From the IMG/VR virus record IMGVR_UViG_2671181118_000002: a stretch of 7,568 nucleotides of DNA. The stretch is one strand, 5' to 3'. The notes beneath the pieces were generated by a model that was given only the letters and a program-made list of their open reading frames with translations, ran no database searches and was not told where the DNA came from. Within the stretch, counting starts at the first letter, position 1, and each line of letters opens with the position of its first letter. Made by a program: the position numbers and the translations under genes. Below, in pieces: positions 1,088 to 7,568 of this stretch. Source of the DNA: a virus. Its lineage: Duplodnaviria > Heunggongvirae > Uroviricota > Caudoviricetes.

Positions 1088-2173
1088 TTACCCCCTGAAG
1101 CCTGGCGGAATTTCGGTATCCGGTTCAGAAACATGATTCACACAACGCTGGTTGTTCGTGCCGCTTACCGGGAGCAACCAGGGGTTTTCAAAATTCCGGT
1201 CCGGTCCAAAAAACGTCGTCGCTCGCTGAACAAATTCCGTTCCCGTTTTCCCGGTAGTCGCCAGGTATCTTGCGTAACGCCTCACGCCATCCAGCATGGC
1301 CTCTGGTGGCACCCCCTCGCGTAATCTGGCCTTCCAGGCACTGAAAGCGGATTTCTTCGGGTTTGCTCCGGCACGCAACGGGTATTCCCGCCAGACCTGT
1401 TCGAACACATCCGGATAATCCACTCGTCCCACAGGCTGCCCGGTGTTTTCCGGGACTACCTGATCGGCTTCCCGCTGAATGGCGGAATCGGCTTCAGGCT
1501 GCTGCAGTTGGTGTGATTGTTCCGGCCTTGCGGTCATCGCCTGCTGCACAGCGCCCGAATCGGCTTCCGGTGTCGTGCCTGCTGGCTGACCAGGATTGAC
1601 GTTCTGAACATCCCCTGCCTGGTTCGTGGCGATTTTTTCGCCATGAAGCATAGTATTTTTATCCTGCTCCTGTTCTTTCTCCTGTTCCTGTTCTTGGCTT
1701 AGAAGCCCCTTTAAAGCCTCTTCGAAGCCCCTTGCTGAATTCCGGCGATTATTCCGCCTCACATCCAGATGGAAATCCGTTTTATATCTGTCGTAAAAGG
1801 CTGACAGAAAGGCGTTTTCAGGTAATGATGCATACTCATTCCTGACACCTGCACAACGGTTATCTCCAGGCTTCAACGTTTCCCCAACCTGCCAGGCTGC
1901 CATTTCATGGACCCAGACCATCTCGGCATCATGGTCATAGCTACAAAAACCAGCTTCAACAGCCCTTTTAAGCCCCTTCGAAGCCCCTTCCGGACCAAGC
2001 CCGGTTTCATGAGCAAGGTACAAAACTGGCAGGTAATACAAACCCAACATATTTGCGTGAGGGGATGTCATCAGGTAAAAAGCAACAACTTGCGCTTCTG
2101 CACCCGCCTTTCTAAGTTCTCTCCCCGTTTCTCCCAGCCAGAATCGCGGGGAAACTTTTGCATAATCACGCAT
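1088..2173 (-). CDS. Putative phage replication-initiation protein (lambda O-like organisation: N-terminal domain, E/Q-rich low-complexity linker, C-terminal domain)
   Basis: Six-frame ORF 1088..2194. Preferred start is ATG at 2171-2173 preceded by GAGGTG; the ORF-track start at 2194 is a TTG. Sits after the cro-like and cII-like genes in the early operon. Contains a QEQEQEKEQEQ linker and iteron-like DNA repeats in the coding sequence. Family assignment is from memory of phage replication proteins and was not verified. Confidence 0.6.
   Translation of the reverse strand: MRDYAKVSPRFWLGETGRELRKAGAEAQVVAFYLMTSPHANMLGLYYLPVLYLAHETGLGPEGASKGLKRAVEAGFCSYDHDAEMVWVHEMAAWQVGETLKPGDNRCAGVRNEYASLPENAFLSAFYDRYKTDFHLDVRRNNRRNSARGFEEALKGLLSQEQEQEKEQEQDKNTMLHGEKIATNQAGDVQNVNPGQPAGTTPEADSGAVQQAMTARPEQSHQLQQPEADSAIQREADQVVPENTGQPVGRVDYPDVFEQVWREYPLRAGANPKKSAFSAWKARLREGVPPEAMLDGVRRYARYLATTGKTGTEFVQRATTFFGPDRNFENPWLLPVSGTNNQRCVNHVSEPDTEIPPGFRG
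1702..1734. repeat. Iteron-like cluster A: three ~11-bp direct repeats (GAAGCCCCTT / AAAGCCTCTT / GAAGCCCCTT) inside the replication gene
   Basis: Read directly: 1702-1711 gaagcccctt, 1713-1722 aaagcctctt, 1724-1733 gaagcccctt. The 11-bp period is not a multiple of 3, so the copies lie in different codon phases. Confidence 0.5.
1961..1990. repeat. Iteron-like cluster B: three tandem ~10-bp copies of AGCCCCTT-type repeat inside the replication gene
   Basis: Read directly: agccctttt (1961-1969), aagcccctt (1970-1978), gaagcccctt (1980-1989). Same motif and orientation as cluster A, about 260 bp away. Confidence 0.5.
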
Positions 2174-2198: not shown

Positions 2199-2244
2199 TC
2201 CTCTGGTTATAATCTGTGATTCACTAATCAACAGAACCAGAGGA
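2199..2244 (+). promoter_or_regulatory. Candidate promoter/operator for the 131-aa gene: 10-bp perfect inverted repeat TCCTCTGGTT...AACCAGAGGA overlapping a TATAAT -10 hexamer and the downstream RBS
   Basis: Arms at 2199-2208 and 2235-2244 are exact reverse complements with a 26-bp spacer. TATAAT at 2208-2213. The right arm contains the AGGAGG Shine-Dalgarno of the ORF starting at 2253. No convincing -35 was found. Confidence 0.4.
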
Positions 2245-2252
2245 GGTTCGAA

Positions 2253-2648
2253 ATGGATTTTGCAACTATCACAAGTAGCGTTGTGTTGAGTGCGTGTGTT
2301 GCTGGCGTGGTTTCGCTGGTTAATGGTGCCTGGCAACGCAAATCGGAACGAACCATTGAAGCGCAACGCCGGGCTGCTGAAGCCAGAGCAAAAATAAGAG
2401 AAATGGCTCTCACCCTCGCATTGAAAGAATGGGAGCTCCACCAAACCATATCGAAGGCAAAGGGGTATGGTGTCAGCGGCCCAGAAGTTTACGTCTTTCG
2501 ATACTTTCGTATGCTCAACCTGATGGAGGAAGACAAATTCACGATTGAAAATCTCAGACTGATCCAGTACGACTCCATGTGTGCTGTTGCAGCAATTCAG
2601 GCAGAGATCGAGCGATATCGGGAGAAAAACGGCCTCCCGATGCCATAA
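2253..2648 (+). CDS. Membrane-anchored protein of unknown function (N-terminal hydrophobic helix, then a charged helical domain); encoded antisense to the surrounding early operon
   Basis: Six-frame ORF. ATG at 2253 with AGAGGAGG 6-7 nt upstream. Residues ~5-26 (ITSSVVLSACVAGVVSLVNGAW) are hydrophobic and followed by QRKSER. Not recognised as any family I know. Confidence 0.65.
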   Translation: MDFATITSSVVLSACVAGVVSLVNGAWQRKSERTIEAQRRAAEARAKIREMALTLALKEWELHQTISKAKGYGVSGPEVYVFRYFRMLNLMEEDKFTIENLRLIQYDSMCAVAAIQAEIERYREKNGLPMP

Positions 2649-2652
2649 ACAA

Positions 2653-2874
2653 TCAGCGTTTTTCATCTTTCCAAATCCTCATATCAGGCTTGCGCCCAAT
2701 GAACCGACGAAGACAATTTAAAGTCCATCGGGTGAAGTAATCCCTGAAACCAAAGAGATACCAGGTGAACAGATTCACGATAAAATGTCCGGCCAGAGCC
2801 CCACCAATACCACAGGCAAGAACAGTAAAAAAATCAGGTAGATTCACAGCCCCCTCCGTCATTGTTAACGCCAT
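2653..2874 (-). CDS. Small membrane protein (64-73 aa) with a long hydrophobic segment and a basic C-terminal tail; function unknown
   Basis: Six-frame ORF. Possible starts: ATG at 2872-2874 (8 nt after the upstream stop, weak SD) or GTG at 2845-2847 preceded by GGAGG with a 5-nt spacer. Hydrophobic stretch FFTVLACGIGGALAGHFIVNLFTWYLFGF. Its stop lies 4 nt from the stop of the convergent 2253..2648 gene. Confidence 0.55.
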   Translation of the reverse strand: MALTMTEGAVNLPDFFTVLACGIGGALAGHFIVNLFTWYLFGFRDYFTRWTLNCLRRFIGRKPDMRIWKDEKR

Positions 2875-5232: not shown

Positions 5233-5285
5233 TTTCTGGTGACGTTTGGCGGTATCAGTTTTACTCCGTGGCTGCTCTGCCGCCC
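5233..5285 (+). ncRNA. dicF: DicF small regulatory RNA
   Basis: TTTCTGGTGACGTTTGGCGGTATCAGTTTTACTCCGTGGCTGCTCTGCCGCCC followed by TTTTT matches the DicF sequence as I recall it, possibly with one substitution. Lies between ydfC-like and dicB, as in the Qin prophage. Confidence 0.85.
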
Positions 5286-5459: not shown

Positions 5460-5648
5460 ATGGAAACGTTATTACCAAACGTTAATACGTCTGAAGGTTG
5501 TTTTGAAATTGGTGTCACTATCAGTAACCCTGTATTTACTGAAGATGCCATTAACAAGAGAAAACACGAACGGGAGTTATTAAATAAAATATGCATTCTT
5601 TCAATGCTGGCCCGTTTACGTCCGATACAAAAAGGATGCTGGCAATGA
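5460..5648 (+). CDS. dicB: DicB cell-division inhibitor (62 aa)
   Basis: Within six-frame ORF 5355..5648. ATG at 5460-5462 preceded by GAGGA gives METLLPNVNTSEGCFEIGVTISNPVFTEDAINKRKHERELLNKICILSMLARLRPIQKGCWQ, recognised as DicB. Directly downstream of DicF. Confidence 0.85.
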   Translation: METLLPNVNTSEGCFEIGVTISNPVFTEDAINKRKHERELLNKICILSMLARLRPIQKGCWQ

Positions 5649-5836
5649 ATACAGCATTTGCACTTGTTCTGACAGTTTTTCTTGTTTCCGGAGAGCCAGT
5701 TGATATTGCAGTCAGTGTTCACAGGACAATGCAGGAGTGTATGACTGCAGCAACCGAACAGAAAATTCCCGGTAACTGTTACCCGGTCGATAAAGTTATT
5801 CACCAGGATAATATCGAAATCCCGGCAGGTCTTTAA
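5645..5836 (+). CDS. ydfD: YdfD-like small membrane/lysis protein (63 aa)
   Basis: Within six-frame ORF 5591..5836. ATG at 5645-5647 overlaps the dicB TGA (ATGA). Product MNTAFALVLTVFLVSGEPVDIAVSVHRTMQECMTAATEQKIPGNCYPVDKVIHQDNIEIPAGL. Confidence 0.8.
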   Translation: MNTAFALVLTVFLVSGEPVDIAVSVHRTMQECMTAATEQKIPGNCYPVDKVIHQDNIEIPAGL

Positions 5837-5929: not shown

Positions 5930-6868
5930 ATGAGTAAAGTCTTTATTTGCGCCGCCATTCCTGACGAACTGGCAACAAGGGAAGAAGGCGCTGTGGCTGT
6001 AGCCACAGCTATTGAAGCTGGCGACGAACGCCGTGCTCGAGCAAAATTTCACTGGCAATTCCTGGAACATTATCCGGCTGCTCAGGACTGCGCTTATAAA
6101 TTTATTATCTGCGAGGATAAACCTGGCATACCCCGCCCTGCCCTCGATTCATGGGATGCTGAATATATGCAGGAAAACCGCTGGGATGAGGATTCTGCTT
6201 CTTTTGTCCCGGTTGAGACTGAATCCGATCTGATGAACGTCACTTTTGACAAGCTGGCCCCTGAAGTACAGAACGCTCTCATGGTTAAGTTCGACACATG
6301 TGAAAACATCACCGTTGATATGGTTATTAGCGCACAGGAATTGTTGCAGGAAGACATGGCAACATTCAACGGACATATCGTTGAAGCGTTGATGAAAATG
6401 CCAGAAGTTAACGCCATGTATCCGGAGCTTAAGCTGCATGCCATCGGGTGGGTTAAGCATAAATGTAAGCCTGGTGCCAAATGGCCCGAAATTCAGGCAG
6501 AGATGCGCATCTGGAAAAAACGTCGCGAAGGTGAACGCAAGGAAACCGGAAAATACACGTCTGTTGTTGATCTCGCCCGCGCCAGAAGGTCATTGCTGCC
6601 ATTCATCGCGAATACAAGCAGACATGGAAAACACTGGATGACGAACTGGCCTACGCTCTCTGGCCTGGTGATGTGGATGCCGGAAACATTGACGGCAGCA
6701 TCCATCGCTGGGCAAAAAATGAAGTTATCGACAACGACCGCGAAGACTGGAAGCGTATCTCGGCATCAATGCGCAAACAGCCTGATGCCCTTCGCTACGA
6801 CCGCCAGACTATTTTTGGCCTTGTCCGTGAACGTCCGATCGACATTCACAAAGACCCTGTGGCACTGA
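5930..6868 (+). CDS. ydfE: YdfE-like prophage protein; only the first ~215 codons look like genuine coding sequence, after which the frame appears shifted (possible pseudogene or fusion)
   Basis: Six-frame ORF. ATG at 5930 with GAGG upstream. Translation is protein-like up to ...VVDLARAR (~6585); the remainder is W/M/H/T-rich and unnatural, while the -1 frame becomes open and protein-like from 6571. Confidence 0.55.
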   Translation: MSKVFICAAIPDELATREEGAVAVATAIEAGDERRARAKFHWQFLEHYPAAQDCAYKFIICEDKPGIPRPALDSWDAEYMQENRWDEDSASFVPVETESDLMNVTFDKLAPEVQNALMVKFDTCENITVDMVISAQELLQEDMATFNGHIVEALMKMPEVNAMYPELKLHAIGWVKHKCKPGAKWPEIQAEMRIWKKRREGERKETGKYTSVVDLARARRSLLPFIANTSRHGKHWMTNWPTLSGLVMWMPETLTAASIAGQKMKLSTTTAKTGSVSRHQCANSLMPFATTARLFLALSVNVRSTFTKTLWH

Positions 6869-7568
6869 ACAAATACATTACTGAATACCTGACTACAAAG
6901 GGCGTGTTTGAAGATGAAGGAAGAAATCAGAGCGCAACTGATACTCTCTCGTCGCCAGTACCAGAAACTGATGCAGTGGAAACGGCAATTCCGGACAACG
7001 AAAAAACCGAATGCAAAGTGGAAGTCGAACCATCTGTAGAGCGTGAGGGGCCGTTCTACTTCCTCTTCACCGACAAGGATAGCGAAAAATACGGTCGCGC
7101 AAACAAACTTTCTGGTCTGGAAAAAGCACTAGCCCTGGGAGCTACGGAAATCACAAAAGAGGAATACTTCGCACGTAAAAACGGCACGTACTCAGGTTCA
7201 CAACAAAATACTGGTGCATCTGACACGACCGCACAACCAGAGCCGGTAAAAGTTACCGCTGACGAAGTAAACAAAATTATGCAGGCAGCCAATATCAGCC
7301 AGCCTGACGCCGATAAGTTGCTTGCTGCATCACGTGGTGAATTTGTTGAAGGGATTAGTGACCCGAATGATCCGAAATGGGTTAAGGGGATCCAGACCCG
7401 CGATTCTGTGAACCAGAACCAGCATGAATCGGAACGGAACTACCAAAAAGCGGAACAAAACAGCACAAATGCGTTACAAAACGAGCCAGAAACGAAACAG
7501 CCTGAACCAGTGGCGCAACAGGAAGTGGAAAAAGTCTGCACCGCCTGCGGTCAGACCGGCGGCGGCAA
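6571..7568 (+). CDS. Long acidic ORF (at least 332 codons, 3' end beyond the window); either the frameshifted continuation of the ydfE-like gene or the N-terminal part of a larger early-region protein
   Basis: Frame with codons starting at 6571, 6574 and so on has no stop through 7568, shows E. coli-like codon use, and has no ATG with a Shine-Dalgarno near its 5' end (first ATG at 6769). Checked by hand codon by codon. Confidence 0.5.

What the first reader, a model, noticed from the sequence alone, without database searches (positions are those of the whole stretch)
1640..1995. Iteron-like direct repeats and an AT-rich linker inside the replication gene: candidate embedded origin
Two clusters of three ~10-11-bp direct repeats with core AAGCCCCTT (1702-1734 and 1961-1990) lie inside the replication-initiator-like ORF. 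The copies are spaced about one helical turn apart and fall in different codon phases, which argues for a DNA-level function rather than a peptide repeat. Cluster A adjoins an AT-rich stretch (1640-1700) that also encodes the QEQEQEKEQEQ interdomain linker. In phage lambda the origin lies within the O gene as iterons followed by an AT-rich region, and this layout is analogous.
Basis: partly seen in the sequence, partly recalled or inferred. Interest (0 to 1): 0.5.

Follow-up and report, generated by a model that had tools for sequence, protein, structure and literature searches.

The report
Replication origin hidden inside prophage initiator gene
The short repeats inside this E. coli prophage replication gene are real DNA-level signals, most likely the phage's replication origin, and the same 9-base signal recurs in thousands of related phage genes across many bacterial phyla.

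Summary
The repeats are real and non-random. On the gene (minus) strand, AAGGGGCTT occurs five times at exact 11-bp spacing: two copies at 1970-1989 and three at 1703-1733. A (CAGGAR)n hexamer tract follows at 1661-1696. All lie inside a 361-aa prophage replication initiator (1088-2173, minus strand).

Comparative evidence shows selection on the DNA, not the peptide:
- Synonymous positions inside the 9-mer are frozen while the 2-bp spacer varies.
- The linker-proximal cluster occurs in either orientation and in any reading frame among homologues.
- The hexamer tract is read in another frame in some intact homologues.
- In three phage records read nearly or fully end to end, 10 of 11 exact copies lie in this gene.
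- A sister E. coli allele shares the C-terminal half at about 98% identity. It has an unrelated N-domain, its own GTCAC(G) repeats and its own hexamer tract in the same layout.

The N-domain is predicted to be a winged helix.

Best reading: an iteron-plus-unwinding-tract origin embedded at the domain junction of the initiator gene, as in lambda ori and SPP1 oriL. No binding or replication assay exists. The "AT-rich" label is weak: the stretch is 43% GC and mainly purine-rich. I class it as a new member of a known kind. The unexpected part is that the 9-mer is conserved across phyla.

The parts
1088..2173 (-). Replication initiator gene (361 aa from ATG 2173; the ORF is open back to TTG 2194). 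It contains all the elements listed below.
   Evidence: ORF list. PHROG phrog_1701 'DnaD-like helicase loader' E=1e-144 and phrog_3729 'replication initiation protein'. No Pfam family. RefSeq names identical copies 'DNA-binding protein'. Homologues start at MRDYA.
1754..2173 (-). Coding region for the N-terminal domain (aa 1-140), predicted winged helix-turn-helix.
1970..1989 (-). Cluster B: two exact AAGGGGCTT copies 11 bp apart (1981-1989 and 1970-1978). They encode E62-L68 (EGASKGL), the start of the predicted third helix (the recognition-helix position) of the wHTH.
   Evidence: Codon test on 58 unique homologous sequences: GAA 58/58; GGG 57/57 and 58/58 (background 27%); GCT 56/58 (24%); AAG 58/58 (33%); CTT 46/58 (18%). 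The Ser codon that carries the 2-bp spacer is free: TCG 27, TCT 17, TCA 12.
1960..1968 (-). Degenerate third copy of cluster B (gene strand AAAGGGCTG; two mismatches, 10-bp offset).
   Evidence: Read from the sequence. Not found at one mismatch or fewer. Weak evidence.
1703..1733 (-). Cluster A: three copies 11 bp apart (1725-1733 exact, 1714-1722 AAGAGGCTT, 1703-1711 exact). They encode aa 148-157 (RGFEEALKGL), where the predicted disordered linker begins.
   Evidence: pLDDT drops after aa 140. In homologues this cluster has 2-4 copies (up to about 10 in L189). It appears in forward orientation in two different frames, or inverted (peptides EGASKGL, RGFExALKGL, EAPSKPL/SPLQAPSKPL).
1692..1700 (-). 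Junction element AAGCCAAGA at the next 11-bp position. AAGCCAR is present in nearly all homologues whatever the orientation of cluster A.
   Evidence: in 72 unique cluster-A sequences the DNA after the last copy is almost always nnAAGCCARGARCAGGAR..
1661..1696 (-). Purine-rich hexamer-repeat tract (CAAGAA CAGGAA CAGGAG AAAGAA CAGGAG CAGGAT) encoding QEQEQEKEQEQD. Candidate DNA-unwinding or single-strand-binding element.
   Evidence: TRF period 6 at 1662-1693 and period 18 at 1658-1695. Copy number varies from 3 to 9 among close relatives. The same DNA is read in the +2 frame (KPRAGAGARTG, KPGTGTGTG) in intact 253-aa homologues L337, L339 and L340. About 10-20 of 171 family representatives use that frame. 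Duplex stability is only about 1.5 SD below the mean.
1655..1660 (-). Mosaic joint. 3' of this point (gene sense) the gene is about 98% identical to a sister E. coli allele (L001). 5' of it the two alleles are unrelated.
   Evidence: Pairwise DNA alignment. L001 carries its own GTCAC(G) repeats and its own hexamer tract.
1163..1441 (-). C-terminal domain (about aa 245-337), shared with many lambdoid 'replication protein O-like' genes that have other N-domains.
   Evidence: tblastn against phages: mEp460, ST64B, cdtI and Stx phages match only aa 173-361. phrog_270, phrog_3729 and phrog_26426.
1091..1162 (-). C-terminal 24-aa tail (GTNNQRCVNHVSEPDTEIPPGFRG), similar to the C-terminal tail of the host primosomal protein DnaT.
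   Evidence: phmmer against PDB: DnaT chains 6aep, 2ru8 and 9zbt match only this tail. NCBIfam DnaT positions 156-179.

Best explanation
The region about 1661-1989 is the cis-acting replication origin of this lambdoid prophage, written into the coding sequence of its own initiator gene.

Shown here:
- Two arrays of a 9-bp site (AAGGGGCTT, 11-bp phasing, so on one face of the helix) lie about 250 bp apart. One sits in the codons for the third helix of the N-terminal winged-helix domain. The other sits at the start of the disordered interdomain linker.
- The second array is followed directly by a conserved AAGCCAR junction and a purine-rich (CAGGAR)n hexamer tract.
- All three elements are conserved as DNA, independent of frame, strand or peptide.
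- They are inherited as one module with the N-terminal domain.

Inferred:
- The initiator, probably through its N-terminal domain, binds the phased 9-mers cooperatively.
- It bends or wraps the 250-bp segment.
- The adjacent hexamer tract opens under negative supercoiling, helped by transcription through the gene.
- The C-terminal domain and its DnaT-like tail recruit the host DnaB-DnaC helicase complex to the opened strand. This prophage has no loader gene next to rep.

The layout matches lambda ori in gene O and SPP1 oriL in gene 38.
For: 1. Non-random phased repeats: three 11-bp-spaced pairs against 0.003 in shuffles; TRF arrays.
2. DNA-level selection in cluster B: synonymous positions inside the motif are nearly invariant in 58 unique sequences, while the spacer position is free.
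3. Cluster A keeps the 9-mer while it is inverted in PhiR5_2, POCJ13 and Acinetobacter phage A785.1, in the same frame as cluster B in a Klebsiella phage and LMessi, and in a third frame in the window. Among 171 family representatives chosen by protein similarity, 115 carry the two-copy signature at cluster B and 91 at cluster A (66 inverted, 25 forward). Shuffled proteins give zero.
4. Motif counts in three phage records (two complete, the Klebsiella one read to 50,000 of 51,967 bp): exact copies in rep are 2 of 2 (LMessi), 4 of 4 (Klebsiella phage) and 4 of 5 (A785.1). The fifth copy in A785.1 lies 38 bp upstream of rep.
5. The hexamer tract is conserved across reading frames in intact genes.
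6. Natural swap: window rep and L001 rep share the 3' half at about 98% identity. They differ in N-domain, repeat sequence (GTCAC(G): four copies at nt 129-160 and five at nt 389-430, 10-11 bp apart) and hexamer tract, yet keep the same architecture. A third class (ACGATACGT, 11-bp phasing, followed by a hexamer tract) occurs in Bacillus phage Gamma, phiCD505 and Geobacillus E2.
7. The N-domain is confidently predicted as a winged helix.
8. Published precedents with the same layout: the lambda origin (iterons plus AT-rich tract) lies in the middle of gene O (PMC7466680). SPP1 oriL, made of AB boxes bound by G38P plus an adjacent DUE, is embedded in gene 38 and is sufficient for replication (PMC5737612). 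By my own reading, SPP1's repeats and its NNNDNNENNDN-coding tract sit at the same domain junction.
Against: No experiment addresses binding, unwinding or replication for any family member, and none was found in the literature.

The supposed unwinding tract is not AT-rich (43% GC) and is only about 1.5 SD less stable than average. The least stable 40-mer in the gene lies between the clusters, at 1758-1797.

Which protein reads the 9-mer is unresolved:
- A Bacillus prophage N-domain (L120) that is 67% identical to that of Geobacillus virus E2 carries AAGGGGCTT, whereas E2 carries a different repeat.
- Some family members have lost the EGASKGL helix sequence yet keep cluster A.
- The 9-mer also occurs in a second N-domain family with no significant profile similarity.

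No true plasmid was found that uses this gene as its replicon.

The prophage may be partly decayed: its exonuclease gene is frameshifted.
Confidence: 0.7

Rival explanations
1. The repeats are operator or roadblock sites for autoregulation only. The initiator, or another phage regulator, binds inside the gene to throttle its own transcription, and replication starts elsewhere.
For: The case for DNA-level protein-binding sites fits an operator equally well. Acinetobacter phage A785.1 has an extra pair of sites 38 bp upstream of the rep start codon, a typical operator position.
Against: Operators are rarely placed 180-480 nt inside a coding region in two arrays. The invariant adjacency to a frame-independent hexamer tract has no role in this model. 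The placement at the domain junction matches the experimentally defined origins of lambda and SPP1. The two functions could coexist.
Confidence: 0.1
2. The conserved DNA is a recombination joint. Short conserved sequences at the N-domain/C-domain boundary persist because they promote, or result from, homologous exchange of modules among mosaic phages. They are not protein-binding sites.
For: The same N-domain is joined to many different C-domains and downstream partner genes. The window/L001 joint lies immediately 3' of the hexamer tract.
Against: Cluster B is not at a module boundary yet is just as conserved at synonymous sites. The 9-mers are too short for homologous recombination. Conservation holds between N-domains only 55-65% identical, from Alpha-, Beta- and Gammaproteobacteria. 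That divergence implies selection rather than recent shared ancestry, though synonymous saturation was not measured here. Strict 11-bp phasing and orientation flips are unexplained by this model. The observed joint lies outside the repeats.
Confidence: 0.07
3. A conserved host factor, or another phage protein such as the helicase or its loader, reads the 9-mer rather than the initiator's winged helix. The site could then serve a different process, such as helicase loading, nucleoid association or packaging.
For: The identical 9-mer is found with at least two N-domain families that show no significant profile similarity (hhalign probability 0.4-30%). It occurs in genomes from many phyla. Closely related N-domains (L120 and Geobacillus E2) carry different repeats.
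Against: I know of no bacterial DNA-binding protein conserved across these phyla with this specificity; the DnaA box is unrelated (my own knowledge). Downstream partner genes vary: DnaC-like, DnaB-like, primase-helicase, or none. Packaging sites normally sit by the terminase genes. In the window/L001 swap the repeats change with the N-domain while the host and the C-domain stay the same.
Confidence: 0.1
4. The repeats are a by-product of coding: a duplicated peptide motif or chance.
For: Cluster B encodes a well-conserved peptide (EGASKGL) in a structured helix. The raw count of five matches is reached in 10 of 200 shuffles.
Against: Rare codons are fixed at synonymous sites while the spacer is free. 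Cluster A encodes unrelated peptides in three frames and two orientations. The phased arrangement is essentially never produced by shuffling. Of those hits, 112 of 120 viral and 85 of 120 genomic ones lie in or beside these N-domain ORFs.
Confidence: 0.02

Closest known systems
Phage lambda ori within gene O (lambdoid O/iteron system)
   Same: The origin lies inside the initiator gene at the junction between the N-terminal DNA-binding part and the C-terminal partner-binding part. It consists of direct repeats followed, in the direction of transcription, by an easily distorted tract (PMC7466680). Repeats co-vary with the N-terminal half while the C-terminal half is exchangeable (window versus L001). 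The genomic setting is lambdoid: cI/cro/cII-like genes lie upstream.
   Different: The protein is not a member of the O family (no Pfam Phage_rep_O hit). The sites are 9 bp at 11-bp phasing, not 19-bp sites each with internal dyad symmetry (my recollection of lambda). There are two arrays about 250 bp apart instead of one block of four. The distal tract is a 43%-GC purine-rich hexamer repeat, not a clearly AT-rich region. No P-like or DnaC-like loader gene follows rep in this prophage; instead the protein has a DnaT-like tail.
Bacillus phage SPP1 oriL within gene 38 (replisome organizer G38P)
   Same: The initiator is a non-AAA+ 'replisome organizer' with an N-terminal DNA-binding domain, a low-complexity linker and a C-terminal domain. 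The origin is embedded in its own gene and consists of repeats bound by the protein plus an adjacent DUE. A 356-bp fragment is necessary and sufficient in vitro (PMC5737612). By my reading, SPP1's repeats and the AAYAAT/GATAAC hexamer-like tract encoding NNNDNNENNDN sit at the same position as cluster A and the (CAGGAR)n tract here.
   Different: The window protein matched no Pfam family at all, so none of the SPP1-type models either. SPP1 has no AAGGGGCTT anywhere in its genome. The SPP1 tract is truly AT-rich. SPP1 encodes its own loader and helicase.
Iteron plasmids (Rep_3/RepA-type initiators such as pPS10, F, R6K, RK2)
   Same: Phased direct repeats are bound by a winged-helix initiator next to a repeat-containing unwinding element. 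From my own knowledge, Rep proteins of this class also bind one strand of the DUE repeats. That is a possible model for the hexamer tract.
Bacterial oriC basal unwinding system (DnaA boxes plus DnaA-trios)
   Same: Double-strand recognition sites abut a short-period repeat tract (period 3 in oriC; period 6, or two triplets, here) where strands open and the initiator extends onto single-stranded DNA. This is an analogy drawn from my own knowledge.
   Different: There is no AAA+ initiator and no DnaA boxes. The resemblance is untested. A tract of hydrophilic codons is purine-rich and NAN-rich anyway, so the similarity could be incidental.

Membership tests
Iteron-type theta origin embedded in a phage initiator gene (lambda ori / SPP1 oriL kind) | Two or more direct repeats phased about one helical turn apart, inside the initiator gene | tested here: met
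   Five copies at exact 11-bp spacing in two arrays within 1088-2173. Shuffles give 0.003 phased pairs against 3 observed.
Iteron-type theta origin embedded in a phage initiator gene (lambda ori / SPP1 oriL kind) | Repeats are under selection as DNA, not as peptide | tested here: met
   Codon freezing with a free spacer. Orientation and frame changes with the 9-mer retained.
Iteron-type theta origin embedded in a phage initiator gene (lambda ori / SPP1 oriL kind) | Adjacent AT-rich DNA-unwinding element | tested here: inconclusive
   An adjacent tract exists and is conserved as DNA across reading frames. It is 43% GC and only about 1.5 SD less stable than the window mean.
Iteron-type theta origin embedded in a phage initiator gene (lambda ori / SPP1 oriL kind) | Repeats co-vary with the initiator's DNA-binding domain and sit at the domain junction | tested here: met
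   Window versus L001 swap. A third repeat class occurs in Firmicute phages. One apparent exception is L120 versus Geobacillus E2.
Iteron-type theta origin embedded in a phage initiator gene (lambda ori / SPP1 oriL kind) | The cognate initiator binds the repeats | not testable with these tools
   Only the winged-helix prediction and genetic linkage are available.
Iteron-type theta origin embedded in a phage initiator gene (lambda ori / SPP1 oriL kind) | The fragment supports initiator-dependent autonomous replication | not testable with these tools
   No natural mini-replicon was found; the 'plasmid' hits are chromosome pieces or megareplicons.
Lambda O protein family (Pfam Phage_rep_O) | Sequence match to the family model | tested here: not met
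   No Pfam family at E<=0.01 for the 368-aa ORF. Some databases label relatives 'replication protein O' only by position.
SPP1 G38P-type replisome organizer (Pfam Phage_rep_org_N, or the 'pfam09524' family to which PMC5737612 assigns G38P) | Sequence match to the N- or C-terminal family models | tested here: not met
   No Pfam hit. One distant homologue (P0061) has a precomputed PF09524 hit. The N-domain profile finds no PDB relative by sequence.
DnaD-like helicase-loader / replisome-organizer proteins (Pfam DnaB_2 C-domain) | DnaB_2 (DnaD-like) domain in the C-terminal half | tested here: inconclusive
   Pfam finds none in the window protein. PHROG phrog_1701, annotated 'DnaD-like helicase loader', matches at 1e-144. 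A Bacillus-type relative with the same 9-mer (L120) does have DnaB_2.
Plasmid Rep_3/RepA iteron initiators | Two tandem winged-helix domains and 17-22-bp iterons outside the gene | tested here: not met

The most novel reading that the evidence does not exclude
The AAGGGGCTT array (11-bp phase) plus the purine-rich hexamer tract may be a portable origin cassette spread across bacterial phyla. At least two initiator N-domain families with no detectable sequence homology would share it.

Its reader may not be, or not only be, the variable winged helix. The hexamer tract could act like DnaA-trios: a periodic single-strand landing pad on which the initiator's C-terminal (DnaT- or DnaD-like) domain polymerises to open the duplex and hand it to the helicase.

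If so, the same DNA would carry three overlapping codes: a double-strand site, a single-strand repeat, and protein sequence in any of several frames.
Probability: 0.2. Interest if true: 0.8.

Novelty: new member of a known kind. Interest (0 to 1): 0.55.

Why it matters
Origins are annotated in very few prophages. This one belongs to a large initiator family with no Pfam model: 4162 cluster representatives at 50% identity match the N-domain.

The family has a simple sequence signature: phased 9-mers, then AAGCCAR, then a hexamer tract. That signature could locate candidate origins in many prophages from Proteobacteria, Bacillota, Bacteroidota and other phyla.

It also shows clearly how a cis-acting DNA element constrains a coding sequence:
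- rare codons are fixed at synonymous sites;
- the peptide is free to change with frame and orientation;
- the 'linker' sequence is dictated by DNA.

If the 9-mer is indeed read by very divergent initiators, it raises a testable question about how binding specificity is conserved. The site could also serve as a handle for building or blocking phage replicons.

Tried and rejected
- Literature string searches for the 9-mer, the 20-mer and the peptide signatures returned only unrelated primer or sequence matches, or nothing. Keyword searches found no description of this family's origin. The paper on non-lambdoid Stx-phage replication regions does not discuss origins or repeats.
- SPP1 was checked for the same 9-mer. 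It has none, so the similarity is in layout, not sequence.
- Plasmids were searched for a natural mini-replicon using this initiator. The 32-kb Klebsiella 'plasmid' is a linear chromosome fragment carrying a prophage, and the other hits are megareplicons or chromosomes.
- I tried to test repeat/N-domain covariation for the L001-type allele in IMG/VR. All 80 returned loci were identical, so the result was uninformative.
- A G-quadruplex reading of the G4 runs was considered and dropped. Most arrays have only two copies, and half are in the C-rich orientation relative to the gene.
- An mRNA-level reading (internal Shine-Dalgarno-like AAGGGG) was dropped because the orientation flips.
- A packaging-site reading was dropped because the element is in the replication module.
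- Not every exact 20-mer hit is related. A Shewanella locus is a 12-copy 11-bp minisatellite upstream of hsdR, and 35 of 120 genomic hits had no recognisable N-domain nearby.
- Single-linkage clustering without low-complexity masking falsely merged families through their linkers. It was redone with masking and with hhalign.
Full report
**Context**

The window is part of a Qin/Rac-like lambdoid prophage of Escherichia coli. Megablast finds about 96% identical prophage segments covering 82% of the window in 23 complete genomes. Annotated neighbours there include dicB, ydfA-D, a DicA-like repressor, YdaS- and YdaT-family genes, a 'phage replisome organizer', a DUF977 gene and a 3'-5' exonuclease. 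Rfam places DicF at 5234-5285.

The finding lies in the minus-strand ORF 1088-2194. Homologues start at MRDYA, which sets the start at the ATG at 2173 and gives 361 aa. Pfam and NCBIfam have no model for the protein. PHROGs match it to 'DnaD-like helicase loader' and 'replication initiation protein' families, while its N-terminal half matches only PHROGs of unknown function. The exact allele is rare, present in 15 of 5426 complete E. coli genomes, where it is annotated 'DNA-binding protein' or hypothetical.

**The observation**

On the gene strand the 9-mer AAGGGGCTT occurs at these window positions:
- 1981-1989 and 1970-1978, both exact (cluster B);
- 1725-1733 (exact), 1714-1722 (AAGAGGCTT) and 1703-1711 (exact) (cluster A).

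These are the only matches with up to one mismatch in the window. Spacing within each cluster is exactly 11 bp, and TRF reports both as period-11 arrays. The proposed third copy of cluster B is poor: two mismatches and a 10-bp offset.

A count of five matches is not rare by itself (10 of 200 shuffles). Three same-strand pairs at exactly 11 bp is: the mean was 0.003 in 300 dinucleotide-preserving shuffles.

The two clusters are 256 nt apart and so lie in different frames. They encode EGASKGL (aa 62-68) and RGFEEALKGL (aa 148-157).

The 'AT-rich' stretch is the weak part of the observation. GC is 0.42-0.47 against 0.48 for the window. Its 40-bp stability is about 1.5 SD above the mean, and a slightly less stable segment lies between the clusters at 1758-1797. 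The stretch does have strong purine asymmetry (39 of 49 purines on the coding strand) and a period-6/18 tandem structure, (CAGGAR)n, at 1661-1696.

**Is the conservation at the DNA level?**

Four independent tests say yes.

1. Orientation and frame. Five phage homologues that share the N-terminal domain all keep two 9-mers at the cluster-B position and two or three just before the QEQEQE linker. The linker-proximal cluster is inverted in PhiR5_2, POCJ13 and Acinetobacter phage A785.1 (peptides EAPSEPL and SPLQAPSKPL). It is in the same frame as cluster B in a Klebsiella phage and in LMessi (EGASKG). It is in a third frame in the window. Each frame and orientation leaves a recognisable peptide trace, so I scored 171 family representatives of at least 240 aa, chosen purely by protein similarity. 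Of these, 115 carry a two-copy trace at cluster B and 91 at cluster A (66 inverted, 25 forward). Shuffled proteins gave none.

2. Codons. In 58 unique nucleotide sequences retrieved by protein similarity, cluster B uses GAA 58/58, GGG 57/57 and 58/58, GCT 56/58, AAG 58/58 and CTT 46/58. In the rest of the same domain the usage is 67%, 27%, 24%, 33% and 18% respectively. The serine codon whose last two bases form the 2-bp spacer varies freely: TCG 27, TCT 17, TCA 12. The sequences are related, so these are not 58 independent events. The free spacer shows there has been enough divergence to lose unconstrained positions.

3. Motif counts across phage records. Two records were read end to end; the Klebsiella record was read to 50,000 of 51,967 bp. 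Exact 9-mers lie in rep in 2 of 2 cases (LMessi, 37 kb), 4 of 4 (Klebsiella phage, 50 kb read) and 4 of 5 (A785.1, 39 kb). In A785.1 the fifth copy, together with a one-mismatch partner 11 bp away, sits 38 bp upstream of the rep start.

4. The linker tract. In 72 unique cluster-A sequences the DNA after the last 9-mer is almost always nnAAGCCARGARCAGGARCAGGAR, with 3 to 9 hexamers. In three intact 253-aa homologues (L337, L339, L340; a DnaB-type helicase gene is called beside L337 and close downstream in L340) the same DNA is read in the +2 frame. It then gives KPRAGAGARTG or KPGTGTGTG instead of KPLRSQEQEQ. Roughly 10-20 of the 171 representatives use that frame and a few use the +1 frame. 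The 'linker' is therefore dictated by DNA, and the protein tolerates whichever low-complexity peptide results.

**A natural swap experiment**

The closest E. coli prophages by flanking sequence carry a sister rep allele (L001). From just after the hexamer tract (window about 1658) to the stop codon, L001 is about 98% identical to the window gene. Its 5' half is unrelated.

That 5' half encodes a different N-domain and has its own repeats. GTCAC(G) occurs four times at nt 129-160 and five times at nt 389-430, spaced 10-11 bp. Nine of the ten GTCACG in the 12.8-kb locus are in this gene. The second array abuts a different hexamer tract, GATAAAGATACA..., encoding DKDTDKDTD.

So the architecture is conserved while the sequences change together with the N-domain. 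The architecture is one array in the N-domain codons, a second array about 230-250 bp downstream, then a hexamer tract.

More distant N-domain relatives in Bacillus phage Gamma, Clostridioides phage phiCD505 and Geobacillus virus E2 show a third class. ACGATACGT or CGATACGGTAT occurs at 11-bp spacing, again immediately before an (EEEK)n, (NNNK)n or (EK)n-coding tract. In Listeria phage LP-030-3 only a single 11-bp-spaced 7-mer pair (TATCTAT) was seen before its (EK)n tract. This is the pattern known for lambdoid O genes, where iterons co-vary with the N-terminal half.

**The protein**

AlphaFold2 with a 54-sequence alignment gives a confident model of aa 10-140 (pLDDT above 92). It has a canonical winged-helix topology, and confidence collapses after aa 140.

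- Cluster B encodes the beginning of helix 60-73, the helix that occupies the recognition position.
- Cluster A encodes the first residues of the disordered linker. This explains why cluster A can change frame and orientation freely.

The C-terminal half is shared with many lambdoid 'O-like' genes that have other N-domains. The last 24 residues match the C-terminal tail of host DnaT. Unlike PhiR5_2, POCJ13 and the Klebsiella phage, this prophage has no DnaC-like gene after rep. I therefore infer, without showing, that the tail helps recruit the host helicase-loading machinery. DnaT's own recruiting mechanism is still unsettled (PMC13377028).

**How widely the 9-mer is used**

For the 596-Gb genome collection, equal base frequencies predict about 17 matches in total. 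HMMs of the N-domains place 112 of 120 viral hits and 85 of 120 genomic hits inside or next to such an ORF.

Genomic hits come from these groups:
- Gamma-, Beta- and Alphaproteobacteria;
- Bacillota (Clostridium, the B. cereus group, Salinicoccus);
- Bacteroidota, Ignavibacteria, Verrucomicrobiota, Planctomycetota and Synergistota;
- Myxococcota, Desulfobacterota, Bdellovibrionota and a Parcubacteria MAG.

Two N-domain superfamilies are involved. Family A includes the window, Bacillus-type L120 and others, with hhalign probability 97% among them. Family B consists of sequences from hosts such as Bacteroidales, Ignavibacteria and Verrucomicrobia, with 98-99% among themselves. Between A and B the probability is only 0.4-39%.

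In family B the 9-mers again flank the N-domain, and the second array abuts a DKDKDK, MDMDKD or GNGIGNG-coding hexamer tract.

Some hits are unrelated. One Shewanella locus is a 12-copy 11-bp minisatellite upstream of hsdR.

**Mechanism and its weak points**

The most economical reading is an origin of the lambda/SPP1 kind. Phased double-strand sites for the initiator lie next to a tract where the duplex opens, all embedded at the domain junction of the initiator gene.

Both precedents are experimentally established:
- The lambda origin, iterons plus an AT-rich tract, lies in the middle of gene O (PMC7466680).
- SPP1 oriL, AB boxes bound by G38P plus an adjacent DUE, is embedded in gene 38. 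A 356-bp fragment is necessary and sufficient in vitro (PMC5737612).

What remains inferred is who binds the 9-mer, where the DNA opens, and whether the fragment replicates. Three observations caution against simply assigning recognition to the helix encoded by cluster B:
- L120 and Geobacillus E2 have 67% identical N-domains but different repeats.
- Some family members have replaced EGASKGL (for example by GAARAAL) yet keep cluster A.
- Family B uses the same 9-mer.

The 9-mer is a near-palindrome: AAG-GGG-CTT against AAG-CCC-CTT. Only the central triplet defines its orientation, which may make inversions tolerable for a symmetric binder. That is speculation.

An autoregulatory role is not excluded and may coexist with origin function. 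A pure recombination-joint or coding explanation does not fit the codon, phasing and cluster-B data.

**Verdict**

This is a known kind of element in an undescribed initiator family. The unexpected features are:
- the very short, strictly 11-bp-phased sites;
- the bipartite layout, with one array inside the codons of the DNA-binding helix;
- the frame-independent hexamer tract;
- conservation of one 9-mer across phyla and across apparently unrelated N-domains.

Noticed in passing
window 1091-1162 (minus strand; aa 338-361 of the initiator): The last 24 residues (GTNNQRCVNHVSEPDTEIPPGFRG) closely match the C-terminal tail of the host primosomal protein DnaT (PDB 6aep, 2ru8, 9zbt; NCBIfam DnaT 156-179). 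This prophage has no DnaC-like loader gene after rep, so the tail may mimic DnaT to reach the host helicase-loading machinery.
   Followed up: partly
L001 3964-5034 (minus strand), the sister rep allele in E. coli strain 23CRST014: It has the same C-terminal half (about 98% identity) but an unrelated N-domain. It carries its own phased repeats, GTCAC(G): four copies at gene nt 129-160 and five at nt 389-430, 10-11 bp apart. A GATAAAGATACA hexamer tract follows. This allele is very common: more than 560 IMG/VR matches.
   Followed up: yes
L331 (Bacillus phage Gamma), L334 (phiCD505), L332 (Geobacillus virus E2), L333 (Listeria LP-030-3): Replisome-organizer genes with a related N-domain lack AAGGGGCTT. 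In Gamma, phiCD505 and E2 they carry ACGATACGT or CGATACGGTAT repeats at 11-12-bp spacing directly before their (EEEK)n, (NNNK)n or (EK)n-coding tracts. These are probably a third iteron class. In LP-030-3 only one 11-bp-spaced 7-mer pair (TATCTAT) was seen.
   Followed up: partly
window 6588 (within 5930-7568, plus strand): The RecE-like 3'-5' exonuclease gene has a single 43-bp deletion relative to the intact 823-aa gene in L001. The deletion shifts the frame after about 220 codons, giving a likely pseudogene, so the prophage may be partly decayed.
   Followed up: yes
window 2199-2874: Between rep and the YdaT-like gene lies an insertion absent from the closest prophages. It holds a 131-aa ORF (2253-2648, plus strand; PHROG of unknown function) and a 73-aa ORF (2653-2874, minus strand). 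A perfect 10-bp inverted repeat (2199-2208 and 2235-2244) has its second arm over the AGGAGG ribosome-binding site of the 131-aa ORF.
   Followed up: no
window 5234-5285 (plus strand) and 5460-5836: DicF antisense sRNA (Rfam, 75 bits) lies upstream of dicB and ydfD homologues. This immunity and division-inhibition module is typical of Qin-type prophages.
   Followed up: partly
L209 32805-32824 (Acinetobacter phage A785.1): A third pair of 9-mers (one exact, one with one mismatch, 11 bp apart) lies 38 bp upstream of the rep start codon, outside the coding region. It may be an operator or an extra origin element. The window has no equivalent.
   Followed up: no
L245 1679-1808 (Shewanella holmiensis): A perfect 12-copy tandem array of AAAGGGGCTTC sits in the intergenic region upstream of a type I restriction hsdR gene, with no rep gene nearby. 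It has the same 9-mer and period but appears to be an unrelated minisatellite, possibly phase-variable.
   Followed up: partly
L189 (IMG/VR contig, high GC): A family member carries about ten 9-mers in the inverted orientation before the linker, most of them in an 11-bp-phased run. Its (CAGGAR)n DNA is read as KPGTGTGTGARTGSG. This is an extreme expansion of cluster A.
   Followed up: no
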